Source: a virus | Lineage: Duplodnaviria > Caudoviricetes | IMG/VR virus record: IMGVR_UViG_2892966740_000006 | Span: 1-64,000 of that record | Strand: one strand, 5' to 3' | DNA length: 64,000 nt | Shown: piece by piece, positions 36,221 to 55,706 of the stretch | Numbering within the stretch: the first letter of the stretch is position 1 | Layout: each line of letters opens with the position of its first letter | The notes under the pieces: generated by a model | The model's database searches: none | What the model was told of the DNA's origin: nothing | Seen by the model: only the letters and a program-made list of their open reading frames with translations | Made by a program: the position numbers and the translations under genes

Positions 36221-36221
36221 C

Positions 36222-36935: not shown

Positions 36936-36946
36936 GGTTCAAACTC

Positions 36947-39073: not shown

Positions 39074-39171
39074 GCCCAAACCCCTTGTTGGGTGAGGACT
39101 CTGCCAATCTGGGTAGAATGGCGATGCAGGCCGCAAACTTGCATGTCATCAACCTTCATTGGAGAGCCCCC

Positions 39172-39471
39172 ATGGAAGACAAAGAATTGATAGCTACACT
39201 TGAGAATCGGGATGAAAACTTTGTTGCGCTGCGGGAAGCGTTTGTGGCGCTTGCTCATTCGCTCGCTCATCAAGGGATTCTTGACCTGGATGTTTTTCGG
39301 AAAGAGATGAAAGCCGCTGCAAATCATCTTCAGACCACTGCCGACGAACCAAAGGCGGCAGTTCTTTTGGAAAGCTTTTCAACAAACCTTCTCGCAGACC
39401 TTGAGAACAAAAGGGACATTGCTGCCGCTCGGCGTAAACGGGATCTTTCTCGTTCTCAGCAGGAGGATTGA
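39172..39471 (+). CDS. opposite-strand hypothetical protein
   Basis: RBS GGAG; 99-aa helical ORF. Confidence 0.55.
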   Translation: MEDKELIATLENRDENFVALREAFVALAHSLAHQGILDLDVFRKEMKAAANHLQTTADEPKAAVLLESFSTNLLADLENKRDIAAARRKRDLSRSQQED

Positions 39472-39606
39472 TACGCGCTGACAAAATTTGTTGAGCATGT
39501 AGCTGTGCTCGACGATCTAAGAGAATCTGTTTCTTCTCTGCTTTCTCAGAAAGAAAATCCGCAGAGAAAATGACGACCCCATCAACAATCTTTGTTGGTT
39601 GGTTTT

Positions 39607-40089
39607 TCATGTCATATCTCCAAACAGTTCAAGCTCTGGTTTGCTGGCCTTCATCACGTTCTCGCGGTGATAGGCCACTTCAGACAAGGTGCGAGTAAGC
39701 GAAGAAACGGTTTCTTCCAGTCCTGACCCATCCTGATAAAACCGTGCTAACAGCGAGATGGCTGCGGCGGCGTTGGCTTGCAGTTCGGCAACATCCGTCA
39801 CGCTGGCTTTACGTCCTGCCGGGATAGCGATTACCACCTTGTTGCCATGGGCCAGACAGAGGTGCTCGCTGACGAATGAAGCACCGGCGAAATACTCAAA
39901 CTGACGAACGCGGTTAAGGGGAATGGAGCTGTCAGCTAACCAGCGGTAATAGGTCTTGAGTTCAACGCCCATCAGGTCAGCCATCACCTTGGCTGGGCGG
40001 CGTAAAACCTCGCTGGCGTGATCGGCACATAGCTCAATCGCCTCATCCAGACTCGAAGGTCTTGCCGACTTCCAGTTGCGTTTTCTCAT
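39607..40089 (-). CDS. conserved Mu-like early regulator
   Basis: HTH-like MADLMGVELKTYYRWL. Confidence 0.65.
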   Translation of the reverse strand: MRKRNWKSARPSSLDEAIELCADHASEVLRRPAKVMADLMGVELKTYYRWLADSSIPLNRVRQFEYFAGASFVSEHLCLAHGNKVVIAIPAGRKASVTDVAELQANAAAAISLLARFYQDGSGLEETVSSLTRTLSEVAYHRENVMKASKPELELFGDMT

Positions 40090-40149
40090 GATGGTTTTCC
40101 TTGCTTCGGGAAACGTAAGGCTGGTGCGCTGTCGCGCTTCCACCTACGC

Positions 40150-40446
40150 TTACTCCATGACAACAGGGCAATTTGCAGTGCCAGAAGGCACCGAAGGGAA
40201 AACCGGCTTAAAATGGCGATGCTCGTAACGGCTTGGCCAAATGGTTTCTGGCTTTACACCGATAGCAGCGGCGATAATTCGCTCGGCTTTCGGCCAAGGA
40301 CGATCAAGCGCATTGTTCAGTGCAGAAGGACTCATTCCTGCCGCGATGGACAGCTTGCGGATCGACCAGCTCCTTACGAACTTCCGCCACGATGTCCGCC
40401 CTGTGCCAATCAACGGCGGCTTTTTTTCGGGTTGCATTGTGCTCAT
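40150..40446 (-). CDS. ner: Ner-like repressor (frameshift errors)
   Basis: DWHRADIVA and L.RPWPKAERIIA.AIG..PETIWPSRY. Confidence 0.88.
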   Translation of the reverse strand: MSTMQPEKKPPLIGTGRTSWRKFVRSWSIRKLSIAAGMSPSALNNALDRPWPKAERIIAAAIGVKPETIWPSRYEHRHFKPVFPSVPSGTANCPVVME

Positions 40447-40600
40447 TCCTTAATCTATTTCGGTGATTAGGTGAGCACATGGTATGACCAAATGGGTTCA
40501 AAGTAAACATGAAAGAGGTCATTTTCATGTTCAAAACAAACTCAAGTGTTGCCATTTTGCAAACCTGTGAATTTGTTTGCTTAAAATTCAAAGGCTTAAC

Positions 40601-41403
40601 ATGAACTATAAAGCTGATAAAAATCCCATTGATCAACTTTCAAGTTCGAGCCGTGAACCTGAAAGTTCAGACTTTCACCAGCGGCTAGCTTCGCTACTAC
40701 CCTCATTTAAGAGTGTTCGTGCTTTTGCTATTGCATCTGGGGTATCGCAAACAGGTTTGCAGAGATTGATTAATGGTGGTGAGCCGACTCTGTCCACCTT
40801 GGTTTCATTGGCTAAAGCAGGTGGCGTGTCTGTTGAGTGGCTTGCGACAGGCGAAGGTACAAGGATGCTAGACAGCGATGCGTCTACGACTGGATCGTTC
40901 GCAACTAATGAGCCAATCGCCCACTATGCCGTCGGCCCATCGACCTCACAGGTAATGGATACGCAGGGGAACCCGGTATGCTTGGAGGAGTTCGCCTTCA
41001 TTCCGCGCTACAACCTGAAGGCATCGGCAGGCTACGGAGCAAGCACAGACGGCGAGAAACCGCTGTTTACCATGGCTTTCCGCAAGTATTGGATAGACAA
41101 CTATCTGCGGTGCCAGCCTAGTGACCTGTCGGTTATCTCGGTGAAGGGTGACTCAATGGAGGGTGTGCTGAACGACCGCGACGTCATCCTCATTAACCAT
41201 ACCGACAATGATCCTGGTACGGGTCTGTACGTCCTGCGTATGGATGGCGATCTGATCGTGAAGCGCGTGCAGCGCATTCCGGTGGCAAGATCAAGGTAAC
41301 CAGTGCGAATACGGCCTACGAGCCTTTTGAAGTCGATCTGGCCAACTTGCCTAACGACTTCTCCATCATCGGCCGTGTCGTGTGGTTTGGGCGCCAAATT
41401 TAA
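40601..41403 (+). CDS. prophage repressor (HTH plus S24 peptidase)
   Basis: VKGDSMEG and LIVKRVQ; repaired end IIGRVVWFGRQI*. Confidence 0.9.
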
Positions 41404-41565
41404 CGGCTAGGTGTATTGGTACGTGTGAAGTATCGATCTGATGCCAATGCAAAAAAACCGCGAAACGCGCTACTTTAGGCGTTAATCGCGGTTTTCTTTT
41501 GCAGGTTTTAAAATTTGCATGTCGCCCGGCCTGAATCGGCCTGAAATCCAAGCCTGGCGCGGATT

Positions 41566-41630
41566 ATCCCGCATCATCCCGGCTCATCCCACAGACTATC
41601 CCCCTGTGCAATTCACCTCACCACACCACA
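41566..41630. repeat. Mu-like left end with periodic ATCCC repeats
   Basis: ATCCC at 41566, 41576, 41586 and 41598; terminal CA at 41630. Confidence 0.6.
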
Positions 41631-42618
41631 CTTGCTCAAGAAGGTCTGTCGCGCCTTTCGCTCGCAAGTCATGAAAGTGAAATCGGCGATTTCCCGCCGC
41701 CTCCCGTGCTCGCATTATTTTCTGCACCAGAGCATTGAATCCGCTGTCGGTGTATGGTTTGCCAGTCCTGCTTGAAACGAATAAATACCTAGATCCGGAT
41801 GGTCTAGGGAGCTTTTTCGCTTCAGCTACAGCTGCCATTAACTTTGGCGCCCACCCTATCAGTACGGTAACGGGTCGGCTGTTCCTGGTTTTTAGCTGAC
41901 GAACTAAAAGCCCGTCGTCGCTTATTGCATCAAGCGACAGGCGCAATACGTCTTGCCTACGCTGTGCCGCAAGATAGGCGATTTCGAGGGCTGATGCGAC
42001 GACCTTCCCTGTGCGCAATGTATTGCCATAGTCCTTGTTTGTCGCCTTTCTGACACCATCCTCACGTTCAGTAAGCATTCCGTGCCTTAGCTCACGAGCA
42101 AAGCTGATGAATCTATCGAGTTCATCATCATCGACGTATCTGTCGCGGGGCAACTCTTTGTTGCGCGTTACCCCTCGGCATGGGTTGCTTTCCACGATCC
42201 CCCAGCGCATTGCCATTGTAAAAACATGGGAGAGAAGCGCTTTCTCTCGATTTCCGGCCACTGCGGCGCCCTTTCCTGCCCTATAGTCGAGATATTGGGC
42301 AACGTGAACTGGCTTTATTTCATCAGGCCTAAAATCACCAAATGCTGCTTCAAGCAGCTTCATCTGCCGCTCTTGGTCCATTCGCGTCTTTGCCGCCTTG
42401 GTTGGTAACACCTCGACTGCATAACGGTTGAAAACAGCAGCCATCCCCTGTGAAGGCATCCGGCATGGTGCTTCCAGTTCTACCCACCGTCTTTTTGCCT
42501 CCCCCAGATCAGCAGATAGTCGAATCCATTTGTTTGCTTTGGTGACGTAGTAGTACGCGCCATTTTTTCGGTACATACGCGGAGGAAGGTCGCGATTTTT
42601 TAGACGGGGTCTTGCCAT
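41631..42618 (-). pseudogene. int: tyrosine integrase interrupted by the Mu-like prophage
   Basis: AAQRRQDVL and FHFHDLRAK motifs; the GH...Y motif is at 208..310. Confidence 0.95.
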
Positions 42619-42620
42619 GT

Positions 42621-42863
42621 TTATCTCGTCGTGGCCATATCTAATGCATCAATGTTTATTGATCGCGTGCTCAGTTGCTGCTTTGGGTTTTCAAAAGATT
42701 CTCCAAGTGCTTGGCGGAACACTACCGAAGATACGATAGGGCGACCACTTGCGCTCTTTAAGTGCGGGATATTATTGGCCTCCAACCACTCGCACACGCG
42801 TCTTGCCAGCTTATATCCAGACAGCTGCTTTAGCTCATCGAATGAGACGATGGTGTCTTCCAT
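42621..42863 (-). CDS. excisionase-like protein (DUF4224-like)
   Basis: EL..LSGYK....CEWL..N.IP....SGRPIV; directly upstream of int. Confidence 0.75.
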   Translation of the reverse strand: MEDTIVSFDELKQLSGYKLARRVCEWLEANNIPHLKSASGRPIVSSVVFRQALGESFENPKQQLSTRSINIDALDMATTR

Positions 42864-42889
42864 CTTCACCCCCCAACAAAAAAGCCGCA

Positions 42890-43326
42890 CTATGCGGCTG
42901 TGTTTACCTTCTTCATGTGGGCGAAGCCCATTCCCTTCTGCCAGACAGTGACACCATCGATTACGATACGCGTCGCCCCTTTCTTTCTTGCTTCCGTTAC
43001 TCGATTGAAAAGCTTCCTGCCGATACGATCCTTATAGCGGCGGCGGCACTCTTCATTTCCAAGGGCAGCCGGTTGAGGTGCATCCTTACCAGGTCCATAC
43101 ACAAAAATGCGGCAGGCTGGGCACCGACTACCGGATGACTCGTACCGCCAGGGCGGCAATGTGAATCAGCTGGCGCAAGCGTAGCGCCTTGAGCATGGTC
43201 TGCATGGTGCGAAGATCAGGTATGGCCAGCTTGGTTTGGAGTTCCGTACGAGTCAGGCTTAGCCGGAGACTGCTGTAGCAACTGCAGCGCACGGCGCTGG
43301 TTAGGGCCAAGTCGTGAGGTGTCCAT
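42890..43326 (-). CDS. winged-helix hypothetical protein (fragmented)
   Basis: QSP(AG)LTRTELQ joins the fragments after repair. Confidence 0.5.
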
Positions 43327-43428
43327 TATTTATTCACCTCCATTAGCACTTTTCTGTCAGTTCTCATGTGATTTACCCATGAAAAAAGCCGCTCAGTGGC
43401 GGCTTGGTAAATAGTTGACGGTAGCGTG

Positions 43429-43920
43429 TTAGTCCACGCGACCTTTGATCTTGTAGCGGCCCCCAACAACGTATCGCTTGTAGGCTGCGATCCAGTCGGT
43501 TGCCATGGCCTTTTGTGCCTCGGCCAGAGAGACATTTCCGTCGCAGACTGACCGGTACAGCACGAACTCCAATTGGTCTTTCTTGGCGGCGCTCCATTCG
43601 CTATTGCGGGGCTGCGGCCACAGGTTGCGTTCATCACGCGGATCACCACCGATCGACAGGGCAATCAGGTGGTCTTCCTCGTAATGTTTTGGGTCCGTGT
43701 CGGCATATCCGTATTCGACGATCTGCGCCTTCTTCAGCTTGTTGGTGTAGTACGCCGGTGGCCGGATAGTCTTGGTGAAGCCTTTGACGCACACGGTTTG
43801 CTGGATGTTGGACTGAGTAATGTCCGGGTTGATGGCGCCCGGAGTAAGTTTAGGATTTGGCAGGTCACCGGCCGCGGCGAATCCCGCAGCCAGTAGTAGA
43901 GCAAGTGCAATCTGTTTCAT
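43429..43920 (-). CDS. secreted HNH-like protein
   Basis: Signal peptide; YEEDHLIALSIGG...NLWPQ...KD.LE. Confidence 0.75.
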   Translation of the reverse strand: MKQIALALLLAAGFAAAGDLPNPKLTPGAINPDITQSNIQQTVCVKGFTKTIRPPAYYTNKLKKAQIVEYGYADTDPKHYEEDHLIALSIGGDPRDERNLWPQPRNSEWSAAKKDQLEFVLYRSVCDGNVSLAEAQKAMATDWIAAYKRYVVGGRYKIKGRVD

Positions 43921-43955
43921 GTTTTCTCGGTGCGATGTTACTGAGCGACAGTATT

Positions 43956-44631
43956 TTACTGCGAGGCGGAGGAATCGGCGCCCGACTGGCTGTGTTTGTT
44001 GCCACGGGCGCGGATGGCGGTGGCGCAGTCGTTGGCACTTTGCCAGCCATCACGGCTAATGTCCCATTGCACACGCTCCATTTCACACACCCCCGCACAC
44101 GCCTCGCGCTCGGCTTCTACTGCCAGACGCACTTCGTCCGGCGCGGCCACCGGCTGGGTGCTGGCGGGCTGCTGCGACTCGCCGTGATCTGCTGCACTGA
44201 ACAGCGCGCCGCAGTCCATACACAGATAGCCGCTTTGCACCACTTGGTTGCGCGCGTCGGCAATGCGGTGCTGGCACACCGGCTGTGCTGCCTCGGCAGC
44301 GGCGATGGCTTCAACAGCCAAGTCATAAGCCGCACCTTGTAAGTGGAAATCGGTAGAGTTACCAAATCCGGCACGATAATAAGCTTTCAGCGCGAGGTAA
44401 AGCTTCGTTTCCAGTTCAGTCATGGCTGGTTCCTTTGCATTCGCACGGCTTTATTGCAACCTCCCAAGTCCCTGCAAACTGCGGATAGATAGTGCATCCA
44501 TCAAAAAGCCATTTCCCTAATATCTTCCCTATGTCCTTGTTATTTGTTCGACGTACATCCAATGCACCGATGATTCTGCCGCACTGGCATATTGCAATAA
44601 ACCCTGTTGGCTTTCGCTTAGTCATGCTCAC
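43956..44631 (-). CDS. two early hypothetical ORFs (43956..44423, 44416..44631)
   Basis: Coupled ORFs; AEREACA..CE and CA.AIRARG motifs. Confidence 0.55.
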
Positions 44632-45127
44632 CCCCTTTCGGCTTCATAAAGACGTACCAATGCGTAAGGCCCTTGCGCCCAGTCGGATGTCCAAACAGTG
44701 GCTGAACAGGGGTAAGAGTCAACAGTTCGCTAATCTTTACCTGTGTTTCATTCCACTTAAAAACAAGTACGCCATCATCGTCCAGAACACGGAAGCACTC
44801 CTCAAAACCTCGGCGGATATCCTCGCGCCAGTCTTTCCCTAGCTTCCCATACTTCGCAGCAAGCCAGCTTTTTGGCCCGGCGCGTACAAGATGCGGTGGG
44901 TCAAATGAAACAAGCTTGAATGACTTGTCTGGGTAAGGCATATCACGGAAGTCCATCATCACATCAGGCTCAATGTGGAGTGTGCGCTGTCCAGTAGGAT
45001 TTCCATGTGAATGATCGGTAACGGTAATGGATTCACTACGGCGGTCACCAAAAACAACATCAGGATTCTTTCGATCAAACCAGAACATTCGACTGCCGCA
45101 GCATGGGTCAAGGACACGCTTATTCAC
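44618..45127 (-). CDS. phage SAM-dependent (amino) DNA methyltransferase
   Basis: VLDPCCGSRMFWF, FDPPH and FKWNE motifs. Confidence 0.85.
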   Translation of the reverse strand: MNKRVLDPCCGSRMFWFDRKNPDVVFGDRRSESITVTDHSHGNPTGQRTLHIEPDVMMDFRDMPYPDKSFKLVSFDPPHLVRAGPKSWLAAKYGKLGKDWREDIRRGFEECFRVLDDDGVLVFKWNETQVKISELLTLTPVQPLFGHPTGRKGLTHWYVFMKPKGGEHD

Positions 45128-45732
45128 ATCTCACCCCCTTTCGGCTGAGGGGCGGCGGGTAGCGGCATCCAGTATGTCGGCTTAGTCAGCCAACATTGAT
45201 TAGATTCGACAGATGTTTCATACCACCAAGCTGCGAACAGATCGCCATCTTCCCAGTTGTCGTCGATGTATTCCTTTGTGAACCACTGGCCGCGCATAGG
45301 GCGCCAGTTCCCGTGACTGTTGAAGTAGCCAAGAAGAACGGTTCGTCCATCTTTCGGCGCAGTGCTGATATCGCGCCACCCATCCGGAACCTGCGCGGTC
45401 GGGGCGTCGAAATCGCCATTCAGCACGGACAGGCCGAAATTCGTGTGCTCGTAGATATTGGCGGTGACGCGCCGCACCAGACCGATTTCAGCCGGGCGCT
45501 TCATCATGTCCTTCGGCACGTCGTAGCCTTCACCATCCGTTACGCATTCGTGGAAGCGGCGAAGAGCCTTCATTTCATCGGGAATGATTGCGAACGGCAG
45601 CGCCACCGCCTCACCGGCAGGCTTGGCGCGGGATGATTGCCATGCAATTAAGGCATCTCCCTTGGTGCCAGTGGTAATTTTCTGGCCTTCGCTATTCCAC
45701 CACTCCTCAAACTCCTCGCGCATCTTGTCCAT
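45124..45732 (-). CDS. DUF551-like protein
   Basis: WRDISTAPKDG...PTYWMPLPAAP. Confidence 0.75.
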   Translation of the reverse strand: MDKMREEFEEWWNSEGQKITTGTKGDALIAWQSSRAKPAGEAVALPFAIIPDEMKALRRFHECVTDGEGYDVPKDMMKRPAEIGLVRRVTANIYEHTNFGLSVLNGDFDAPTAQVPDGWRDISTAPKDGRTVLLGYFNSHGNWRPMRGQWFTKEYIDDNWEDGDLFAAWWYETSVESNQCWLTKPTYWMPLPAAPQPKGGEM

Positions 45733-46488
45733 ATCGAACTCCAAAAAAAATGAGGCCGCTCGGGCCTCGTTATTCCTTATCCTGGTATCGCTGACCGCAC
45801 TGGTCTGAGCAGAACTCGTCAAAGTGATGCCGCACCCTATGACGCCCGGTGATCGGGTCACGGTCCTGCTGTACGACTTCGTGGATGACGCGATCCTCTA
45901 TCGGCTTTCCGCAGTGCGGGCAGCGTGGGAGTGTGTTCACGCCACCTCCCGTACCATCTGGATGACGTTTTCGCGGCTCTCAGCAGGCAAGCGGCTTGCA
46001 GCCAGCGCAACTTCCAGTTCGCGGATGCGTGCGTCTGCCGCAGCAAGCTGGCGCTCTGCGATTTCGGTACGCTCGGCCTCGGCGGCCAGTGCGATGTTCT
46101 GGCGGCCAAGGTCCATGATGTTTTCGTTGAGCTGTTTGATCTGCGATTGTTGCCTGAGGATGATCTCAGCAGCTTGCAGTCTGATAATGGTTATTTGGTC
46201 CATGGCGTTTCCTCAAATAAGGCTGGGCTGCTCCAGCACGCCCAGCGGCGCGAGGTCTGATGCCTCGGCCACGATTGTTGTGTGTATGACGGCATCGACC
46301 AGAACCATCGAGACACCATCCCGCTCGTGATAGCCACCATTACGGCCGGCGGACTACGGTTTGCCCGGCATATAACTTCCAGTCGCCCTCCCCGTTCACG
46401 GTGAAAGCGGTGTCCATCGGAATGCGCCGGGCATCACGCTTGGCAGCGGCCAAATGCTCTATGGTTCCGTGTTCCATGCCCTCTCCTT

Positions 46489-46581
46489 CCGCCGCCAGTG
46501 TTGAGCGCCCTCTACCGGCTTTATCAGAGGACGGCACCCAAGCGAGTTGATCGGGGTGAAGGCGCTCAGGACTGGCGGCGG
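46489..46581 (-). ncRNA. unrecognised structured RNA, copy 2
   Basis: Long stem around the core shared with 30809..30900. Confidence 0.65.
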
Positions 46582-46634
46582 GGCAAAGAAAAAGCCCGCG
46601 GGTGGCGGGCTTGTCATACTTCAATAACGGGTGA

Positions 46635-47115
46635 TCACATCACCAGCACGCTGAAGCGCGATTGCAGGCCGATTGGGGAGAACGGGATGTCGTCATCAAG
46701 ATCGTCCATCTTCTTCGGCGCTGGATCTGGCTGACGTCGAGGCGGCGCAGCCGGGGCGCTGTGCTGCTCACCTGCCCCATCACGCCCACCCAACATTTGC
46801 ATACGGTCGCCGCGAATCTCCGTGCTGTAACGGTCCTGGCCGGTTTCTTTGTCCTGCCATTTGCGCGTACGGATCGAACCTTCCACGTACACTTGCGAGC
46901 CTTTTTTCAGGTATTGGGCTGCAACTTCGGCTGTTTTGCCAAAGAACACGACACGGTGCCATTCGGTCAGCTCTTCACGCTGGCCGGTTTGCTTGTTGTT
47001 GTACGTGTCGGTGGTGGCCACGGACAGTGTGGCAATGGCGTCGCCTAAGCATGTAACGCGTTTCAGGATCGCGGCCAAGGTTGCCGACGAGGATCACTTT
47101 GTTGACTGATGCCAT
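46635..47115 (-). CDS. ssb: single-stranded DNA-binding protein
   Basis: [25 protein letters not shown] and DDDIPF; break near 47045. Confidence 0.92.
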
Positions 47116-47764
47116 CAGGCTGCTTCCTTTTCGTCATCCGGTATTGCCTGCAAAAAACAGGCTTTTAAGTTTTCGTAAGCCGTTTGTAATCGTTGCTTTT
47201 CGCTTTCCCCACAACGCTTCCAAGCTCCGCCAAAAATCCCTTGCAGGCTTGCAAGGTCAGCACATCCTTGCATTGCCTCGATCGCCATATCGACTTCTTC
47301 GGCCTGCATGGCCGCGTTATCTTTTTCCTCTTTTTCAGCAAACTCTTTCTTCAAAGAGGTTACGTACTTGTTGTCATCGAATAGCCCCATGAACACATCA
47401 GCACTAAACCCAATGTGAGAAAGCCCCTTTGTCAGCGCGTCAGTTGTCGCCTTCTTAGCCGCATCGTCATCAAGCTTTCCTTTGGCGTTAAGAATTTCGG
47501 CAAGGCCGCGCCGGGACCAAAACAGTTACTGCGATCGCCATGCCATACAATCACATCAGCAGCAGCAAGAACGATGCTTCCTGCTGTGACAGTTGAATGC
47601 TCTACTGTGTATCCCCATCCCTGCCCCACAGGCCCGAATGTTTCCGTTGCCCGCATCACTTGGTAGTGCGCATCGATGGCGGTGAATTTACGGCCAAGAC
47701 TTACATCTTTTGTGTGTCTTGGGTCTGTCTTGCTTACTTTGTTCCAAAGGTCCATGTTTGACAT
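47115..47764 (-). CDS. putative ssDNA-annealing recombinase (two fragments)
   Basis: ATETFGPVGQGWG and DAAKKATTDALTKGLS.IGFSADVFMG; adjacent to ssb. Confidence 0.65.
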
Positions 47765-47948
47765 GTTGATCCCCTAAAACGGCAACACCTGCACGCGGGC
47801 AGGTGTTGGTTGATCTCTTCGGCACAGCATATTGCTGGCGAGTAGCTGTGACATTGTCTCGCATGGCCTAAGCGGGTCTTTCCTTGACCGCGCCCAGCGC
47901 CATGCATCGGCCCATTGTTTACGGTTCATGGCAATTATCATGGTCATC

Positions 47949-48464
47949 TCAGCGCCAAGTTATGGCGCACCTCGATGTGCGCACCGGTATTTGCTGGCCG
48001 TCTTTCAGCAGCTTCTTGACGTCAGCTTTGCGCACGGCCCAGCTGGCTGGGACGTACTCTTTTGCCGTGTTCGGGATAAGGCTTTCGTCGTCGATGATGA
48101 CGGCCTCGCTCTTGCGTAGCCCCATGGCGATTTCGCTATCCTTTGGCGTGATGGCGCGCTCCAGCATCACCTTGACGGCCAGTGACGCCAGATTGTCTTT
48201 GCCTCCTTCTAGCGCCTTCTTGCGGGCTTGCAGTGACTTGATGCGCTCGTCCAAAGCTGCCGCCTCGGCCTCTTTGTTCTTGATCACCTTGGCGTAGTTG
48301 AGCAGCTTGGTTTCAATGTCCCCAGACTCGCCTTCCAGTGTGTCCAGATAGATTTGCTTTGCTTGCTCCTCTGTCAGCTTCCCTTCTGCTACATCAGCAG
48401 CAAGACTGGCCGACAGGCTGGCTTCCATCTCAGCAAAGGCTCTGTTCAGTTCAAAAAGGTTCAT
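47949..48464 (-). CDS. siphovirus Gp157-like protein
   Basis: DTLE..SG..E.K, KN..AEA and V.I.DESLIP motifs. Confidence 0.75.
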   Translation of the reverse strand: MNLFELNRAFAEMEASLSASLAADVAEGKLTEEQAKQIYLDTLEGESGDIETKLLNYAKVIKNKEAEAAALDERIKSLQARKKALEGGKDNLASLAVKVMLERAITPKDSEIAMGLRKSEAVIIDDESLIPNTAKEYVPASWAVRKADVKKLLKDGQQIPVRTSRCAITWR

Positions 48465-48691
48465 GATTCACTCCATGAAAAAGGCCGCACTAGGCGGCCA
48501 GTCTTGGTTTCTGTTTCAGACACTCGAACAGGATGTCTTCGATGGTTGATCTTTCGCGCTCGCGCTCGACGGCGTCTTTCCGTCGTCCGGGCGCTTTCGG
48601 CAGCCCGGAAAACAAGCATCCGGTGGTGCTTATCACGCGTCTGCGCCACGGCATTGCTGAGGGTCATTTCGGCAGGAATCATTTGCGGGCC

Positions 48692-49003
48692 TCAATCAAT
48701 GGTTTCTGTCTTTGTCTCGCAAGTTCGTGTCTTTCCAGCCTGTCGGCATTCTTCCCAGCTACTCTCAGTGCTTGTCTTGCTGTTATTGCAGCGAGTGAAA
48801 TAGTGGTAACGATCTCCAGATTTGAAGGTATAAACCTTGCACCCATCAGCCTCGCGGATTACGTGAGGCGTTTTCTCTCGGCGCTCACTTTCTGCCTGTT
48901 CTCTCTGATCGCGCTTGTACCACTCTGAGTTTTGGCAGGACGAAACCCCAAACAAAATCCCGGCAAAAACAGCAATTAATACAACTAAGTCTTTCCAGCT
49001 CAT
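48692..49003 (-). CDS. lipoprotein-like protein
   Basis: Hydrophobic N-terminus, VSS-C and DGCKVYTF motifs. Confidence 0.55.
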   Translation of the reverse strand: MSWKDLVVLIAVFAGILFGVSSCQNSEWYKRDQREQAESERREKTPHVIREADGCKVYTFKSGDRYHYFTRCNNSKTSTESSWEECRQAGKTRTCETKTETID

Positions 49004-49290
49004 GCCGCCTTCCTTTGCATCATGCACTTCGCGTAGTCTTCTGCCGCCACTTCAACAATCGCGTCCAATGCCTTCTTGGCTAGGCAATCAGGTCCAGCGC
49101 TGACAAGTGCGAGAAAGTCTTCGAGCATGGGGCCGATTTCCTGTGTCCTACCAATCACATCCCCATAGTCGATTCCATCGCTCATGTATGAGCGTTTCAG
49201 CCTCTCGAATTCGGCCTTCTTGTCGGCGTCACGATCCAGCTCCTGCAGGTGCCTAAAAAGGTCATTCATCACTGCGCACGGGGCGTTCAC
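49000..49290 (-). CDS. hypothetical early protein
   Basis: Coupled ORF ending RKAA. Confidence 0.5.
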   Translation of the reverse strand: MNAPCAVMNDLFRHLQELDRDADKKAEFERLKRSYMSDGIDYGDVIGRTQEIGPMLEDFLALVSAGPDCLAKKALDAIVEVAAEDYAKCMMQRKAA

Positions 49291-49777
49291 CGCCGCACCT
49301 CATGCACAGGAAGGCCGTTGCGGCCGAAGTAGCGAAAGCGCAAGCGCAGCCCTTGCTCGCGGAGTTGGCTGGCCATTTCATCCGTCACCCAGCCGATGAT
49401 TTCGGTAAGAGTCATGGTGTATTCCCCAAAAAAGAACCCCGCACATGGCGGGGCTAGGTTCAATCACAAGGGAAAGCCGGTGAGGCTTCTGGCCGTCCGG
49501 GTTTACGTAGACCGAGGAGATGGATAGTGACCAGTCGCCTCAACGGTTTCCCCTCAAAAAGATGGGCGACCCGAAAGCCGCCCCAAGTCAACGCTCGTTA
49601 CAAAGGAGAGTCGATGGTTACCCATCATCAAGCGCACTCCGGCTACTGGACTGTGGCGTCCCACTGGTCGCTTGCTCACGAAATGTGCTTGAGGATGGGG
49701 GCTGGCCTTTAACCTCGCCAGCGCGGAGGCCGTGGTAAACTCAATTTCCACATGTCATCAACCACGGAGATGCCTTT

Positions 49778-49912
49778 ATGCAAAAATTTTCCGATAACAC
49801 ACGCGGGCACGTTCCGCGTACCCCTCCTCCGCCCCCTCCTAACTCTTCGGGATTTGCGAAGGATCATGCGCCGAGAATGCCGCCACCACCGCCGCCACCG
49901 GCAAAAAAGTGA
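49778..49912 (+). CDS. 44-aa polyproline repeat peptide (not in the ORF track)
   Basis: RBS GGAG; MQKFSDNTRGHVPRTPPPPPPNSSGFAKDHAPRMPPPPPPPAKK*. Confidence 0.7.
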   Translation: MQKFSDNTRGHVPRTPPPPPPNSSGFAKDHAPRMPPPPPPPAKK

Positions 49913-49920
49913 GGTAGTAA

Positions 49921-50399
49921 ATGGATCGTCACGAAGTTGAATTCCAGCTTGATTACTCAATCATCATTGAGGAAATGCAGCTAATCCTTATGGGAAGAGC
50001 TGATCGATTCCTGACGTTTTTCCAGTTTTTACTGGGGAGTGCGGCAGCTGGTGATATTTTTTCAATCAAGTTTATTGGTTTTGTTGTGGCGATCTGTGCT
50101 GCATTGCAGTTTGTTTACCAACCAGCTTCAAAAGCGATGGAGGCCAAAATCCAGCGCGATCGATATTTGTTACTGAAAAAACAATCGGTAGAGATGAGCA
50201 CTGAGCAATTGGATTTAGCATTAAAGGATGTCTTGCCTATTGATTCAATTATCCCTAATGCGCTCTGCCATCCTGCTTGGCTGGCTACCTGCTTACAACA
50301 GGGAAGGCCAATTGAAGATCATGTAAAAAAGATGACATGGATGGAGTCTTTCCTTTCCGGCTTGCAAGCAGGAGACCCGTTCTGGATAGAACCTCATAA
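49921..50399 (+). CDS. two-TM membrane protein (SLATT-like layout)
   Basis: Helix-TM-TM-helix; probable true end ..LAGRRPVLDRTS* at 50399. Confidence 0.65.
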
Positions 50400-51048
50400 C
50401 TCTATTGCGTTAATCAGTGGTGGAGCTCCCGGAAGGGCTTCCGGTACTGTTTTCTCTCCTCCGCACATGACGACCGAGAGCGGGTCGTTGAAGTCTATCC
50501 GCCTGATGGCGGCCAGCGGTGCGGTACGCTGGTCATCGCAAACCAACACAGCTGCACGCTCCCACACTGAAATACAGACAAATACAAGGAAGAAAAACGG
50601 AGCGTGCATGTGTGTTGGTGCTGCATCCCGCCATTCCGTGCAGCGGCTGTCACTATTTCCCGGCCCTTACAGGTCGGTGCCGTGGCGAGTCGGCGTTGGG
50701 TTATGCTGGTCTTTAAAGACGCCAGCGCGGTCTCATCGGCAGTTAAGTCCGCCGCTCGCCTTGGTGCTCAGTTGGCGCATCCAGCTTCGCGGCTTTTTCG
50801 TAGAGCCGCATCATTCTGCGCATCAGTTTTTTGTAGTAATCGTCTTGGTGGTACTTGCAGACGTCACCCGGATAAATCATGAAACCGTTTTCGTACTCAG
50901 GGTGGCTGCACTCGCACTTCCCGCGAAGCTTCGATTTGATCTCTGCTTTGCACGCAGACTCAAAGCTAAACCATCGTCGCCCACCGCCGCGCCAAACAAC
51001 GGCTACTTCTTTTCTTGGCAGCATGTTGGCCTCCTCGTTAAACATCAA
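50394..51048 (-). CDS. first pL-operon ORFs (50394..50609, 50743..51048)
   Basis: RBS GAGGAGG before MLPRKE; follow the pL leader hairpins. Confidence 0.45.
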
Positions 51049-51298
51049 AACCCCCTGTCACGAAGCTTTGATGCTGGCCCTGTTGCCAAGGCCTCCCAGC
51101 CCCTCCGCTCGTCATCTGGAGTTAAGGGCCTTCCCATCGGTGCGCTTACGTTCCACGCGCATTGACCACCGCTCATGGGGCTTCTGGGGCTGGGTGTGCA
51201 GTCTTGCGCCCGTCTGCCTGACGGTACGCCCCGGACTGGGCGGGTGCTTCTACTGGGTTGTTTGAGATCGGTGCCCGGTGTGCTGGGCTGATGGAGTG

Positions 51299-51339
51299 AA
51301 TATACACAAACGTGTTTCTTGGTGTCAACACATTTGTGT
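51299..51339 (-). promoter_or_regulatory. pL/oL
   Basis: TTGACA...TATATT overlapping ACACAAACGTGT (51304) and ACACATTTGTGT (51328). Confidence 0.7.
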
Positions 51340-51537
51340 TATCAGGATGTGTTTTTTGTGTCATGGAGATACAGCTACGTGTAGGTTGGTGTTGTATGGA
51401 CGCAAAAAAGCCCGCGAACGCGGGCTGGATGGTGCGAGCCTGCCGCACCGGTTTTTACCCGAATGGTTAGATCCCGTCCGGAGTGTAGTTGGTGTGCAGC
51501 CTAGCTGCTGTCGGAGCAAGCCTATCTATGGATAGTC

Positions 51538-52098
51538 TCAATCTTGCAGTTTAACTAACTTGCCGTTTCGGTATCGGTATAAGACCCCGTAGCCTTGCGT
51601 TCCAATGGGAATAAAAACTTCACCGGACCGGAAAAAGACCTTGTCTTGCCCGGTATCTGACATTAGACGAACCCATTTACCATTACGAAGGGAAAATACT
51701 TCAACTACCGATTTAAAGTGCTCGGTATCGCAATGCACAACAGCTACTTGTTTTTTTCCGTCCGTTCCAAGTGAAATCTGGGCCACTTCAATTTGAGAAC
51801 CATGAATGCTCTCTAAGTTATCCAAGCTTACCGGAAGTGCTTTTATTGGCAATTGGTAAGCAACGTTTGCGCCATCTCTTGCTGTGAAATAACCGATTTC
51901 ACCACGGGCGCGCGGAATTATATCGACGTCATACAAATCGCCATCTTGCTTGAATTTTATCTTCAGTTCTTTAAATGTTCCATCACGGTCAAGTTTAGTA
52001 ATCTTGGTGGGGACACTGGGATCAATGCAGCGAGGAGCAGCAGCGGCTATCGTAGAGGCCACGGAAAGAGTGATAGCTGCGATATGAAGTAATTTCAT
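51538..52098 (-). CDS. moron: secreted protein
   Basis: Signal peptide; AT-rich. Confidence 0.7.
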   Translation of the reverse strand: MKLLHIAAITLSVASTIAAAAPRCIDPSVPTKITKLDRDGTFKELKIKFKQDGDLYDVDIIPRARGEIGYFTARDGANVAYQLPIKALPVSLDNLESIHGSQIEVAQISLGTDGKKQVAVVHCDTEHFKSVVEVFSLRNGKWVRLMSDTGQDKVFFRSGEVFIPIGTQGYGVLYRYRNGKLVKLQD

Positions 52099-52289
52099 GA
52101 GATGTCCAGTTGGCAGTTAGCTTATCAGGGCAATTCATTCGCTACCATCCATGGAACCCATGATTGGTAATTGGATGGGCAGCGGAAATGATGGATGACT
52201 ACGAGCCATTCTATCAGTCATTTTCATGCATTTGCCATAGGTCATGATGGTCATAATGCAAAAAAACCCGCCGAGGCGGGTTAGTGCAA

Positions 52290-52382
52290 TCAACGCAGCA
52301 TGTGCGCAATCAATAAAACAATTTGTGTTTCGTACATCAGGCCAAAGAAAAATCCAGACAGCAACGTTAGTATATCGTTCAT
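52290..52382 (-). CDS. 30-aa hydrophobic peptide (not in the ORF track)
   Basis: RBS GAGG; MNDILTLLSGFFFGLMYETQIVLLIAHMLR*; own terminator. Confidence 0.55.
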   Translation of the reverse strand: MNDILTLLSGFFFGLMYETQIVLLIAHMLR

Positions 52383-52590
52383 GCTCTTACCTCTTAAATT
52401 AGCGCGCCACTAGGATTGGGCGCGTACCCCCAATTTTCAGGCCATAACATGAGGAGCATGCAGCTAACAAAGTGGGGTAACTCTGCCTATTTCCAACTTT
52501 TTTCAATTTTTTTGCTAGTTAACGACTAGACTTGCTTGCTTAGACCAAGAAAAAACCCGCTGAAGCGGGTTCATCAGCCATAGGGATGAA

Positions 52591-52779
52591 TCAGGCAGTG
52601 GTGTTGATGCGGTTACCGACTGTAGCCGAAATCGGGCGCGATTGACGCTCAACTTCGCCTCGTTTGCTGTTGTCGTTGTCCCCATCGCTATCAGTGGCTA
52701 CTCGATTCGCCTGACCTGCCGTTCTGCTGACAGCCTGCTGGCTTTGATAAGACATACTGCTGCTTACGCTTGAAATCAT
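52591..52779 (-). CDS. moron: 62-aa low-complexity protein
   Basis: RBS GAGG; DSDGDND; ends VGNRINTTA; own terminator. Confidence 0.65.
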   Translation of the reverse strand: MISSVSSSMSYQSQQAVSRTAGQANRVATDSDGDNDNSKRGEVERQSRPISATVGNRINTTA

Positions 52780-52939
52780 GGTTTTATCCTCTTAGGGGGT
52801 AGAGTCCCCATTTGTCACTATATCTACGCCAGATTAAAGGCACCTTAAGCCTCAGTCGGGGTTGGCAATGATGCAGGAGATCAGGATATGGTGGGGCAGG
52901 CATGAAGTGCAGACAATAAAAAACCCGCCTCGGCGGGTC

Positions 52940-53791
52940 TTACTTCATATACTTAGCAATAACATCATGTTTTACTTTAAAATAAGAAAACCCAGACTTT
53001 AGCGTGATGCAACATTCATCACCACCCACATGTAAATCTGCAATTTTGTATCTACCCTCCGGAATATATCCATGATCCGCGCCATTATAAAATGGTTCAT
53101 GCATCACCATATCTTTAGGTATCTCAACAAACCCTTTATCGATCCATCTATCGTACAGCCATGTAAAGTCTGCAAAAATCCTATTATTTGGTGGATTTGT
53201 TATATTTCTTCGCTGGATTATGAACGGTTCAGAAATATCATAAACGCCAATTAGTATGCTTCTCAAGCTGCTCTTCATTAGCATCTCATCCAAGTCACCG
53301 TTTTTAATTCCGATAGCAATAAATTCCAAATAATTAAGTATATAGCGTACGGCTGCGACTTTCTCTTTATCATTAGTGTCTTCGCTAGCAATTAGCTCCA
53401 GTGACATCTTTCTTGTTTTACCGGATGCAGTCATGAAGCATTTATTAAGCATTTCAACATTTTCCATATACTTTGCTGACAATCTAGTCTGTAGCAATGT
53501 ATTTATAGTATGTTGCTTAATTGAATTTCTAATAGTAACCATGGAGCTTGTAATCCAACCTGCGACCGCCGCATATGCCGCAGTTAGAGTTACCCATGAC
53601 TGTGCATTAAACTCTGATGAAGTAAGTGGAAATGTCTTTGGAAGTAAAAAGTGCCAAGCAGCAAAAATAAAATACGCACATGAGACAAAAATAAGCAAAA
53701 GACCCAGCGCTCGGCTGGGTCTTGTGAAAGTCTTTACAGTATTGAAGTTAATCAATTTATACAGCCTTTGCTCCGAGGCCTTCACCTTCAT
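52940..53791 (-). CDS. moron: DUF4760-like membrane protein (start uncertain)
   Basis: Two TM segments; KQHTINTLL and YILNYLEFIAIGIKNGDLDE. Confidence 0.7.
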   Translation of the reverse strand: MKVKASEQRLYKLINFNTVKTFTRPSRALGLLLIFVSCAYFIFAAWHFLLPKTFPLTSSEFNAQSWVTLTAAYAAVAGWITSSMVTIRNSIKQHTINTLLQTRLSAKYMENVEMLNKCFMTASGKTRKMSLELIASEDTNDKEKVAAVRYILNYLEFIAIGIKNGDLDEMLMKSSLRSILIGVYDISEPFIIQRRNITNPPNNRIFADFTWLYDRWIDKGFVEIPKDMVMHEPFYNGADHGYIPEGRYKIADLHVGGDECCITLKSGFSYFKVKHDVIAKYMK

Positions 53792-53804
53792 TATATTTTT
53801 TCAT
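53757..53804 (-). CDS. 15-aa leader peptide MKKYNEGEGLGAKAV
   Basis: AGGAG RBS 8 nt before the ATG. Confidence 0.5.
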   Translation of the reverse strand: MKKYNEGEGLGAKAV

Positions 53805-53832
53805 ATTGACATCTCCTGTCTGCGGGTAAAAA

Positions 53833-53908
53833 TTTAAATAAAACGACCATGACAAAAATAGCCCTTGCGTCGCAAAGGCTTCTCATGTTCATGGTCGTTT
53901 TATTTAAA
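53833..53908. repeat. perfect 20-bp inverted repeat enclosing a second hairpin
   Basis: TTTAAATAAAACGACCATGA / TCATGGTCGTTTTATTTAAA. Confidence 0.85.
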
Positions 53909-54300
53909 GATCTTCCTGCTATTTAGGCAGGTTAAAGTACTTGATTTGTACTTTGTAAGGTAATTCTAGACAGTTCCGCGAGCGCTCACAACCGAGTTAT
54001 CCACAGATTTCATGTTTTTTTCGCACAGTCAAGTGTCCCACTGAGAGTAAGTAACCTATTTGCGCAATGACCAGCACATGCTGTGCTTGGGGAGCGATGT
54101 TCTCATTGAAGGTGCTGAGAAATCAACACCTTCTTCTAGATGTTGCGGCCACTTCATGCCTTTGTGACAGAGTGGCAACAGGTTGGCGATGCTACTAGGG
54201 TTGCCATTCCATCTTCGGGAACTCTCTGCTCGTAACCATTCCTGCATAGCCTGACATCACGCACTAGTGCTTGCAACCCAAGAAAACATGAATCTATACC

Positions 54301-54589: not shown

Positions 54590-54695
54590 TTCGTTCCCTT
54601 TGCATGTTCAGCGTTTTGACATGTGACATTGGCATGTCCTCATGCGGTTGCAAAGAATCCCGCTTGCGCGGGACTCTGGTGTGGCGGCTATCGTC

Positions 54696-55398: not shown

Positions 55399-55400
55399 GA

Positions 55401-55474: not shown

Positions 55475-55480
55475 TGTGTC

Positions 55481-55675: not shown

Positions 55676-55706
55676 TCCAACCAACCAACTGATAAGGAGG
55701 CTCCCC

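What the first reader, a model, noticed from the sequence alone, without database searches (positions are those of the whole stretch)
46489..46581. Second copy of the shared RNA motif (lambdoid prophage, after ssb)
Seen: the same core enclosed by different stems (CCGCCGCCAGT/ACTGGCGGCGG and TGAGCGCC/GGCGCTCA). On -, it directly follows a U-tailed hairpin (~46586..46612) and abuts the next RBS. Structure is conserved while flanking sequence and neighbouring genes are not, which argues against a simple recent duplication.
Basis: partly seen in the sequence, partly recalled or inferred. Interest (0 to 1): 0.75.

Follow-up and report, generated by a model that had tools for sequence, protein, structure and literature searches.

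The report
New structured RNA motif in prophages
A roughly 90-base stretch that folds into a long stem capped by two small hairpins recurs between genes in several unrelated prophages of one bacterial family; it matches no catalogued RNA family, and what it does is still unknown.

Summary
Window 46489..46581 (- strand) folds as a ~21-bp outer helix P1 (two segments around a 2x2 internal loop) enclosing a three-way junction. The junction carries a variable hairpin P2 and a short hairpin P3 whose loop begins with the invariant UCCUCUGA. It lies 7 nt after the ssb terminator's U-run and 1 nt before the next Shine-Dalgarno sequence. Copy 1 (30809..30900, -) lies before gemA-mor of a Mu-like prophage. 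The own genome has five copies.

A covariance model finds the motif in 19 of 68 genomes of the family (Aquitalea, Chromobacterium and relatives). It finds none in 147 genomes of other families of the order, and none in 55 metagenome pattern hits. In 27 distinct copies, 21 of 30 base pairs change on both sides and 90% of cells stay paired. P3 and its loop do not vary.

No Rfam 15 family matches. The motif occurs in three element types (Mu-like, lambdoid, P4-like island), nearly always on the gene strand just upstream of a start codon. In Mu-like elements it lies downstream of a type II hammerhead, once only 13 nt away.

Best reading: a new cis-acting RNA domain of prophage early polycistronic mRNAs that processes, stabilises or gates the downstream cistron through a host factor. 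The mechanism is inferred, not shown. A new self-cleaving ribozyme is not excluded.

The parts
46489..46581 (-). Whole motif, copy 2 (93 nt): P1 helix enclosing a three-way junction with hairpins P2 and P3
   Evidence: covariance-model hit of 90.0 bits (R1) and 78.4 bits (R2)
46571..46581 (-). P1 outer segment, 5' strand (CCGCCGCCAGU); pairs with 46489..46499
   Evidence: these columns covary across copies
46489..46499 (-). P1 outer segment, 3' strand (ACUGGCGGCGG)
46561..46568 (-). P1 inner segment, 5' strand (UGAGCGCC); pairs with 46502..46509; separated from the outer segment by a 2x2 internal loop (CC/AC)
   Evidence: the inner P1 sequence GAGCGGC/GCCGCUC is semi-conserved in the family
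46502..46509 (-). P1 inner segment, 3' strand (GGCGCUCA)
46535..46558 (-). P2 hairpin (CACCC / GGGUG) with a 14-nt loop containing AUCAAC
   Evidence: the stem covaries (3 of 4 pairs); a YYAAC-like word recurs in the loop
46515..46534 (-). P3 hairpin (CCG/CGG here, GCCG/CGGC in most copies); its loop begins with the invariant UCCUCUGA followed by a variable 2-7 nt, usually A-rich, tail
   Evidence: no change on both sides in P3 in 27 distinct copies
46582..46612 (-). Intrinsic-terminator-like hairpin (46612..46592) plus U-run, directly upstream of the motif
46475..46488 (-). Shine-Dalgarno-like AAGGAGAGGGC and the ATG of the next ORF (45 aa, 46340..46477, no family hit)
46635..47115 (-). ssb gene upstream (phrog_44), apparently interrupted by a frameshift (ORFs 46975..47115 and 46635..47078)
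30809..30900 (-). Motif copy 1 (92 nt) in the Mu-like prophage, 19 nt upstream of the gemA-like start
   Evidence: (106.2 bits)
30903..30951 (-). Conserved imperfect hairpin that starts at the stop codon of the upstream gene and ends in GUGUUUUAA; precedes every Mu-type copy examined
29915..30789 (-). gemA-like (phrog_286) and mor-like late activator (phrog_836) genes downstream of copy 1
32332..32396 (-). Type II hammerhead ribozyme in the same Mu-like early operon, 1.4 kb upstream of copy 1
   Evidence: 72.3 bits against a gathering score of 37

Best explanation
What it is. The element is a real, previously uncatalogued structured RNA domain carried by prophages and islands of the Chromobacteriaceae-level family. 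It is transcribed as part of long early polycistronic mRNAs.

Anatomy. P1 is a 19-23 bp helix that is free in sequence but nearly fixed in length, with an invariant CA/UG step and a semi-conserved inner part. It closes a three-way junction. P2 has a variable stem and a loop carrying a YYAAC-like word. P3 is GCCG/CGGC, and its loop begins with the invariant UCCUCUGA.

Proposed mechanism (inferred, not shown). The element acts in cis as an intercistronic processing, stability and translation module for the gene that starts 0-23 nt downstream.
- The two-turn P1 duplex is the kind of substrate a double-strand-specific endonuclease such as RNase III cuts, or else a clamp at the 5' end of an already processed mRNA.
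- The invariant loops are read by a conserved host component. This would explain why three unrelated element types in one host family keep the same loop sequence while everything around it drifts.
- The outcome is that downstream regulators (gemA-mor; AlpA/Xis-like genes; small ORFs) are uncoupled from the upstream cistron.

Shown: structure, conservation, distribution and gene context. Inferred: that it acts as RNA, that it is cut or bound, and the effect on expression.
For: Structure.
- z = -4.70 for both window copies.
- In 27 distinct copies, 90.4% of cells are paired and 21 of 30 pairs change on both sides. No shuffle of 500 reaches the observed value on 4 of 5 measures. Slid controls pair at 29-47%.
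- P1 has almost no indels despite near-complete sequence turnover (alignment printed; single folds give 19-23 bp).

Not coding. P2 and P3 loop lengths differ by non-multiples of three.

Context.
- A same-strand ORF starts 0-23 nt downstream in 28 of 30 copies.
- A same-strand reading frame ends 2-134 nt upstream in 29 of 30.
- The upstream terminators in copy 2 and L049 are in the sense orientation.

Three element types carry it.

Link to RNA processing.
- A type II hammerhead lies upstream on the same strand in 7 of 20 loci scanned. All 7 are Mu-like, and in L171 it is 13 nt away.
- In Pseudomonas phage MP29, and in 3 of 5 gemA relatives without the motif, a hammerhead sits in front of the gemA block instead.
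- Perreault et al. 2011 (PMC3088659; passages read) propose that prophage hammerheads cut long transcripts into gene-length mRNAs.

Host restriction. 19 of 68 family genomes have it, against 0 of 147 genomes from other families of the order.
Against: - No transcript data. The RNA and metagenome contigs laid on the region covered only ssb, not the motif.
- No cleavage site, binding partner or expression effect is known.
- The strand is not proven. In sense orientation there are 11 G.U against 15 A.C cells. My own reading of the list, setting aside the internal-loop columns and counting related rows once, gives about 7 G.U against 3 A.C events.
- An RNase III site needs no conserved cap, so P1 alone does not explain the invariant loops.
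- In L049 and L219 no gene starts close downstream. In L049 a terminator precedes the motif and a promoter-like region follows it.
- Sitting next to the RBS is partly expected for anything intergenic in a tightly packed phage genome.
- In L171 a hammerhead already cuts 13 nt upstream, which makes a second cleavage function look redundant there.
Confidence: 0.4

Rival explanations
1. A new class of self-cleaving ribozyme. The invariant P3 loop and the P2 loop would dock to form an active site, and the RNA would cut itself. This would do the same job as the hammerheads in these operons.
For: - About a dozen invariant nucleotides on a covarying scaffold of about 90 nt.
- Intergenic, on the gene strand, just before a start codon, as for the hammerheads in the same phages.
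- Co-occurs with type II hammerheads in 7 of 20 loci. Mining the neighbourhood of known ribozymes is how the last three bacterial classes were found (recalled: Weinberg et al. 2015; not read here).
- No known family matches.
Against: - The conserved bases sit in hairpin loops, not in the junction or internal loops.
- P1 is unusually long and GC-rich for a small ribozyme.
- Distribution is confined to one bacterial family.
- In L171 a hammerhead lies 13 nt upstream, so a second cutter would be redundant.
- No circularly permuted forms were seen.
Confidence: 0.12
2. A precursor of a small stable RNA that acts in trans. The P1 duplex would be cut and the cap (upper P1 + P2 + P3, about 60 nt) released. 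The cap would then use its invariant pyrimidine-rich loop to titrate a host protein or pair with host or phage RNAs, for example as an anti-defence decoy or a regulator shared between co-resident prophages.
For: - Closing stem plus two hairpins with conserved loops resembles processed phage antisense RNAs such as P1/P7 c4 (architecture recalled).
- The same loop is kept in three unrelated element types of one host family.
- Five copies occur in one genome.
- The loop is complementary over 8 positions (7 Watson-Crick pairs and 1 G.U) to a 16S rRNA segment of the host. I estimate that such a match would arise by chance roughly one time in seven.
Against: - No complementary target site of 8 of 9 or better lies within 1.5 kb in 24 of 25 loci. 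The one hit is at -1089.
- No Rfam C4 or isrK match at the motif.
- No own promoter or terminator.
- Nothing shows that the cap accumulates.
Confidence: 0.15
3. A cis-acting processive antitermination RNA, working like the HK022 put sites. The folded RNA would bind the transcribing polymerase and let it read through the many downstream terminators.
For: - Two adjacent hairpins with sequence-specific loops, with no phage protein in common among the carriers.
- The lambdoid leftward operon has an excess of terminator-like sites: 37 against 15.2 expected in 41-56 kb, about a dozen of them on the - strand, including 45768, 43405 and 42899 downstream of the motif.
Against: - The motif lies about 8 kb from the likely leftward promoter, after most of the terminators and directly after one of them.
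- Mu-like and island contexts have no obvious need for it.
- Put RNAs are not enclosed by a 20-bp helix (recalled).
- No put model exists in Rfam, so similarity could not be tested.
Confidence: 0.08
4. A DNA-level element. It would be a hairpin extruded in single-stranded DNA that serves as a priming or recombination site, or simply a shared boundary sequence at which phage modules are exchanged.
For: - Neighbours are often DNA-metabolism genes: ssb, exonuclease, Gam-like, and a primase-type gene block in the islands.
- In Mu-type copies the conserved block starts exactly at the stop codon of variable upstream genes.
- The wobble test does not favour either strand.
- L049 lies between a terminator and a promoter-like region.
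Against: - Compensatory changes in P1 and P2 require selection on a fold, not on shared sequence for recombination.
- The three-way-junction core is asymmetric.
- Strict co-orientation with genes and sense-oriented terminators.
- Mu-like, lambdoid and island elements replicate in different ways.
Confidence: 0.07

Closest known systems
RAGATH-type candidate RNAs (RNAs associated with genes associated with twister and hammerhead ribozymes; Weinberg et al. 2015/2017, recalled; only a search listing for the word was seen)
   Same: A conserved, covarying, intergenic RNA structure of unknown function in prophage-like DNA close to hammerhead ribozymes.
   Different: No RAGATH or any other Rfam 15 model matches, even at E up to 10. 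This motif is confined to one bacterial family.
Type II hammerhead ribozymes of Mu-like/Casadabanvirus-like phages (Rfam RF02276)
   Same: Same operons, same strand, intergenic, ending a few bases before a start codon. Also a three-way junction.
   Different: No CUGAUGA...GAAA core in the junction. The conserved bases lie in hairpin loops. No hammerhead model hit on the motif. Self-cleavage is untested.
RNase III processing hairpins of phage early mRNAs (T7 intercistronic sites, lambda sib; recalled)
   Same: An intercistronic duplex of about two helical turns, free in sequence but kept in structure, sometimes with a central internal loop, in early polycistronic transcripts.
   Different: Those sites need no conserved cap. 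Here a three-way junction with an invariant 8-nt loop word sits on top. Cleavage is not shown.
c4 / CI antisense immunity RNAs of P1, P7 and P4 (Rfam C4 family; architecture recalled)
   Same: A closing stem with two hairpins carrying conserved loops, embedded in an operon transcript just upstream of a ribosome-binding site; a pyrimidine-rich loop.
   Different: No C4-family hit. No matching target sites nearby beyond generic Shine-Dalgarno complementarity.
Correia/NEMIS repeat-enclosed elements of Neisseria (recalled)
   Same: Intergenic inverted-repeat elements in related bacteria that are co-transcribed with neighbouring genes and cut by RNase III.
   Different: Those are high-copy mobile elements with conserved terminal repeats and a variable centre. 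Here there are 5 copies, all in prophages or islands, with covarying stems and a conserved centre.

Membership tests
Any Rfam 15 family (4227 models) | Covariance-model score at or near the family's gathering threshold | tested here: not met
   Gathering scan of the window: only Hammerhead_II (32332..32396) and a tRNA. E<=10 scans of 46380..46700 and 30770..30990: the best hits are 23.4 bits against 90 (a plant microRNA model) and 17.1 against 60.7 (opposite strand). No ribozyme, riboswitch, C4 or RAGATH model appears. 20 related loci: only hammerheads.
Hammerhead ribozyme | Three helices around the conserved core (CUGAUGA, GAAA, cleavage triplet) placed in the junction strands | tested here: not met
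   The junction strands are short (0-5 nt) and not conserved. CUGA lies inside the P3 loop. No hammerhead model hit on the motif.
Intrinsic terminator | GC-rich hairpin directly followed by a U-run | tested here: not met
   The P1 3' strand is followed by a purine-rich Shine-Dalgarno region, not by U. The true terminator-like hairpin is the separate one at 46612..46592.
RNase III processing site | Roughly 20 bp or more of coaxial double-stranded RNA | tested here: met
   P1 is 19-23 bp in single-sequence folds. It occupies 21 aligned pair columns with almost no indels.
RNase III processing site | Staggered cleavage by RNase III in vitro or in vivo | not testable with these tools
   No transcript ends are available. 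Laid contigs did not cover the motif.
c4/CI-type phage antisense RNA | Loop sequences complementary to target sites (a/b sites) on the same operon transcript | tested here: not met
   A search for the complement of the invariant loop (9-mer, up to 1 mismatch) within 1.5 kb on either side: 1 of 25 loci has a site, at -1089.
RNA anti-CRISPR (solitary repeat unit mimicking host CRISPR repeats) | Sequence and hairpin resembling the CRISPR repeat of the host's system | tested here: not met
   My k-mer scan of the own genome found only three loci of 3 direct repeats each and no longer CRISPR-like array. Repeats next to strong Cas1 hits in 5 of 12 family loci bear no likeness to the motif core by eye. 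Cas1 is in 22 of 68 genomes and the motif in 19 of 68, with an overlap of 7. Arrays of the systems with weak Cas1 hits were not seen.
tRNA-like element | Cloverleaf detectable by a tRNA finder | tested here: not met
   ARAGORN finds nothing in 30000..48000.
Riboswitch | Conserved junction or internal-loop nucleotides forming a pocket, with a short switchable closing helix coupled to an expression platform | tested here: not met
   The junction strands are unconserved. P1 is a stable helix of about 21 bp (about -41 to -62 kcal/mol for whole motifs in 23 of 24 folds, one at -28.9) and does not include the Shine-Dalgarno sequence. Ligand binding itself is not testable here.
Mobile inverted-repeat element (MITE, Correia-like) | Conserved terminal inverted repeats, many copies, variable centre | tested here: not met
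   The own genome has 5 copies. The terminal stems differ and covary while the centre is conserved.

The most novel reading that the evidence does not exclude
The motif is a new class of small self-cleaving ribozyme, or a new RNA that recruits a host nuclease. Prophages of Chromobacteriaceae would use it alongside type II hammerheads to cut early polycistronic transcripts just upstream of regulator genes.
Probability: 0.12. Interest if true: 0.85.

Novelty: new variant of a known kind. Interest (0 to 1): 0.55.

Why it matters
Phage early operons are known to carry RNA elements that cut, stabilise or gate long transcripts, such as hammerheads, RNase III sites and nut/put sites. What those elements are for in prophages is still unclear.

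This motif is a well-supported new structure in that setting:
- It is shared by three unrelated kinds of mobile element.
- It occurs in only one host family.
- Its loop sequence has not changed while its stems have been almost fully rewritten.

That pattern points to a specific host-side partner or an intrinsic chemistry. Either would be new.

The element is small (about 90 nt) and has natural compensatory variants, so it is directly testable by self-cleavage assays, RNase III digestion and reporter fusions.

If it turns out to be only a stabilising hairpin, it is a minor addition to the catalogue of phage RNA motifs.

Tried and rejected
**Transcript evidence.** One search for RNA runs gave only contig-level holders with 5-11% of the words. 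Laying four of them covered only the conserved ssb part (46679..47100) and nothing over the motif. This says nothing for or against expression.

**Wider homologues.**
- blastn of the element against 50,697 phage records: no match.
- Exact 16-mer in species genomes: 105 stretches, 80 fetched. I ranked these by fold energy and read the 15 most stable. Only the two Aquitalea loci had the architecture.
- Exact 16-mer in IMG/VR: 40 loci, 7 real by eye. Most of the rest belong to one AT-rich contig family, most likely chance or coding.
- Gapped pattern in metagenomes: 0 of 55 loci pass the model.

**RNA anti-CRISPR mimic.** Rejected. See the membership test.

**c4-like antisense RNA with nearby targets.** Rejected.

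**Anti-Shine-Dalgarno sequestration of the downstream RBS.** By eye, the downstream leaders offer only the generic 4-5 nt match of any Shine-Dalgarno sequence to UCCUC (sequences). No extended or covarying pairing was seen, so this was not pursued.

**Loop-loop pseudoknot between P2 and P3.** No pairing is consistent across the copies (read).

**Coding.** Both window copies lie in spurious ORFs sharing ...GCRPLI.... Loop-length differences break the frame in other copies.

**tRNA anticodon-loop mimicry.** The P3 loop contains UCUGA. The host assembly has only a tRNA-Gln with anticodon UUG among 85 tRNAs, and ARAGORN sees no tRNA-like fold. Dropped.

**Promoter inside the motif.** No convincing -35/-10 was seen by eye.

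**Strand test by G.U versus A.C.** Inconclusive.

**P4-like islands lacking the motif.** The single-protein query found only close Chromobacterium relatives.

**Notes of this scan.** Three look-ups returned nothing.

**Literature.**
- The core sequence strings occur in 8 papers, all unrelated primers by their titles.
- 'Mu-like + hammerhead + ribozyme + prophage': 0 papers.
- 'Chromobacterium + ribozyme + prophage': 1 paper, a general review by its title and abstract; not opened.
- 'Aquitalea + prophage': 3 papers, none about Aquitalea prophages by their titles and abstracts.
- I found no description of this motif in those searches. Subscription papers and supplements were not seen.

Full report
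**1. The observation**

On the - strand, window 46581..46489 reads as two nested stem segments around a core: CCGCCGCCAGU / ACUGGCGGCGG outside and UGAGCGCC / GGCGCUCA inside, separated by a 2x2 internal loop.
- Upstream: the ssb-like gene stops at 46635. A terminator-like hairpin (46612..46592) with a U-run follows, and the motif begins 7 nt after the run of five U's.
- Downstream: the last paired base is followed at once by AAGGAGAGGGC and the ATG at 46477..46475, which opens a 45-codon ORF.
- Fold: as RNA, 46625..46470 has a minimum free energy of -75.3 kcal/mol and z = -4.70. None of 200 shuffles folds as well. The inner part forms two adjacent hairpins.

**2. The other copy, and further copies**

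A word-7 blastn of the element against the window finds one other place, 30838..30876 (-), with 35 of 39 identical. It is enclosed by quite different stems, giving a 92-nt element at 30809..30900.

PHROG scans place the two copies as follows:
- Copy 1 lies in a Mu-like prophage (transposase, HU-like, Gam-like, then the motif, then gemA-like phrog_286 and the mor-like activator phrog_836).
- Copy 2 lies in the leftward early operon of a lambdoid prophage (CI-like repressor, Gam-like, exonuclease, SSB, the motif, methyltransferase, integrase).

The whole genome holds five exact copies of the 17-mer core, each with its own stems, all on the same strand of contig C3.

**3. Family and structure**

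I built a covariance model from eight copies (R1).
- It finds the motif in 19 of 68 genomes of the window's family, G000 included, in 6 of 10 genera.
- A second model built from 24 hits (R2) finds it in none of the 147 genomes from other families among 151 sampled from the order. That sample holds at most three genomes per family.

Named records with the exact core are Aquitalea aquatica and A. palustris. The protein next to the island-type copies is 100% identical to one in Chromobacterium amazonense.

In other collections:
- IMG/VR, gapped pattern: 94 stretches, 80 fetched, 17 pass the model.
- Metagenome contigs, stricter pattern: 0 of 55 pass.
- 50,697 phage records: no blastn match.

Covariation on 29 model-aligned hits, 27 distinct:
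- 90.4% of cells are standard pairs, against a shuffled mean of 72.3% and 29-47% when partners are slid.
- 21 of 30 pairs change on both sides: P1 18 of 21, P2 3 of 4, P3 0 of 5.
- No shuffle of 500 reaches the observed value for four measures; 19 of 500 do for the count of pair types.
- Because the alignment was fitted to the model, these counts lean towards the structure. The independent single-sequence folds nevertheless give the same architecture for 19 of 24 sequences. In the other five, P1 forms but the inner hairpins are drawn differently.

Consensus read:
- P1: 19-23 bp, nearly free in sequence but almost without indels. It has an invariant CA/UG step, a frequent mismatch two pairs further in, and a semi-conserved inner part GAGCGGC/GCCGCUC.
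- Junction strands: short and unconserved.
- P2: a 4-7 bp variable stem with a 6-18 nt loop carrying a YYAAC-like word.
- P3: GCCG/CGGC with a loop that begins with UCCUCUGA followed by a tail of 2-7 nt, usually A-rich. UCCUCUGA is unchanged in 26 of the 27 distinct aligned copies (one has UUCUCUGA). One weaker hit outside that alignment has UCCUCAGA.

Loop lengths differ by non-multiples of three, so the shared '...GCRPLI...' in spurious ORFs is not a coding signal.

**4. Context**

Three kinds of element carry the motif:
- (a) Mu-like prophages, always in front of gemA-mor. Here the motif is preceded by a second conserved block, an imperfect hairpin that starts at the stop codon of a variable upstream gene and ends in GUGUUUUAA.
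- (b) The lambdoid operon of this window.
- (c) P4-like islands of Chromobacterium and relatives. Here it lies between a conserved small gene (N-terminus ...NLYTR...) and an AlpA/Xis-like helix-turn-helix gene, in one case followed by an integrase.

In 28 of 30 copies a same-strand ORF of at least 35 codons starts 0-23 nt after the motif. In 29 of 30 a same-strand frame ends 2-134 nt before it.

The exceptions are L049 and L219.
- L049 is one of the own genome's five copies. It lies between a terminator and a promoter/operator-like AT-rich region.
- L219 is from IMG/VR.

Opposite-strand ORFs in that script's control are not informative in DNA this GC-rich.

**5. Link to hammerheads**

Rfam finds a type II hammerhead at 32332..32396 (-), 1.4 kb upstream of copy 1 in the same operon. 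It ends 16 nt before an ATG.
- Of 20 related loci scanned, 7 have a hammerhead upstream on the motif's strand. All 7 are Mu-like, and in L171 only 13 nt separate the two.
- Of 12 gemA relatives from IMG/VR, 7 have the motif. Of the 5 without it, 3 have a hammerhead about 280 nt upstream of gemA, directly before a small ORF that overlaps the gemA start.
- Pseudomonas phage MP29 has the same arrangement and no motif. The best R2 score there is 14.4 bits, on the other strand and elsewhere in the locus.

So in this phage group the gemA-mor block is regularly preceded by an RNA-processing element, and in the Chromobacteriaceae members this motif stands there as well.

Perreault et al. 2011 (PMC3088659; passages read) showed that prophage hammerheads flank genes. 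They proposed that these cut long transcripts into gene-length mRNAs.

**6. What it is not**

- No Rfam 15 model matches at E up to 10 on either window copy.
- It is not a tRNA-like fold.
- It is not a terminator: no U-run follows P1.
- It is not a hammerhead: the junction is not conserved.
- It is not a c4-type antisense RNA with nearby targets.
- It does not mimic the CRISPR repeats seen in the family.
- It is not a high-copy mobile repeat.
- It is not riboswitch-like by conservation pattern: loops are conserved, the junction is not, and the closing helix is very stable.

**7. Mechanism**

*Shown.* This is a selected fold with an invariant loop word. It lies on the gene strand, intercistronic, in early operons of three unrelated element types, and is restricted to one host family.

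*Inferred.*
- It acts as RNA in cis on the transcript that carries it.
- The two-turn P1 of near-fixed length is what a double-strand-specific nuclease cuts. Alternatively it is a 5' clamp on an mRNA already cut upstream, as the hammerhead 13 nt away in L171 would produce.
- The loops that never change, in elements that share no protein, argue for a host-side reader or an intrinsic activity.

I put 0.4 on this processing/stability/translation-gate reading as a class. The rivals are:

| Rival | Odds |
|---|---|
| Excised trans-acting RNA or decoy | 0.15 |
| New self-cleaving ribozyme | 0.12 |
| Put-like antitermination | 0.08 |
| DNA-level hairpin or module boundary | 0.07 |

*Against all RNA readings.* No transcript data could be obtained, and the wobble-pair test does not fix the strand: 11 G.U against 15 A.C cells. 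My own reading of the list gives about 7 against 3 events once the internal-loop columns are set aside and related rows are counted once.

*One lead of uncertain weight.* The invariant loop can pair over 8 positions (7 Watson-Crick pairs and 1 G.U) with a 16S rRNA segment present in all seven rRNA operons of the host. By my rough estimate a match of that length somewhere in an rRNA operon has about a one-in-seven chance, so I do not build on it.

**8. Novelty and verdict**

I found no description of the motif in Rfam 15, in full-text searches for its sequence, or in four topic searches. Subscription papers and supplements were not seen.

It is a new RNA family of a known general kind: a phage intercistronic structured RNA close to hammerheads. 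Its taxonomic range is narrow and its function is untested. That makes it moderately interesting as it stands, and highly interesting only if the ribozyme or host-factor reading proves true.

Noticed in passing
window 32332..32396 (-): A type II hammerhead ribozyme (72.3 bits) lies between an HU-like gene and a Gam-like gene of the Mu-like prophage and ends 16 nt before the ATG. The same arrangement occurs in Pseudomonas phage MP29 and in IMG/VR relatives.
   Followed up: partly
window 30903..30951 (-): A conserved imperfect hairpin begins at the stop codon of variable upstream genes and ends in GUGUUUUAA. It precedes every Mu-type copy of the motif examined, including those from other genera. 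It may be a separate RNA element or a weak terminator.
   Followed up: partly
window 46635..47115 (-), 47115..47764 (-), 30837: ssb is split between two frames (ORFs 46975..47115 and 46635..47078). The exonuclease hits are split over two ORFs. Copy 1 has one extra T in P3 that the other Mu-type copies examined lack. The assembly is 80.6% complete with 6.7% contamination, so these may be assembly indels rather than true pseudogenes.
   Followed up: no
window 41000..56000: The lambdoid leftward operon has an excess of terminator-like sites: 37 found against 15.2 expected from shuffles, about a dozen of them on the - strand. This suggests dependence on processive antitermination.
   Followed up: no
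G000 contig C3, seven rRNA operons (16S, about 700 nt into the scanned stretch): A 16S rRNA segment (GUCAGAGGGG) is complementary to the motif's invariant loop over 8 positions, counting one G.U. This is possibly chance.
   Followed up: partly
L165, L166, L168, L169, L172, L174, L176, L253 (motif at about 1500 in each): P4-like islands of Chromobacterium and relatives carry the motif between a conserved small gene (...NLYTR...) and an AlpA/Xis-like helix-turn-helix gene, once followed by an integrase.
   Followed up: partly
L049 / L033 (own genome C3 around 468,100): This copy follows a strong terminator. It is followed not by an RBS but by an AT-rich region with a TTGACT...TAAATA promoter-like pair and an inverted repeat that resembles an operator.
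   Followed up: no
L011, L014-L019, L021, L022 and others (IMG/VR): A family of AT-rich viral contigs shares the exact 16-mer CCGTCCTCTGATAAAG, closed by GAG/CTC. It is probably coding sequence or chance, and it is unrelated in architecture to the motif.
   Followed up: no
window 46..118 (+): A tRNA gene (67 bits) lies at the very start of the window.
   Followed up: no
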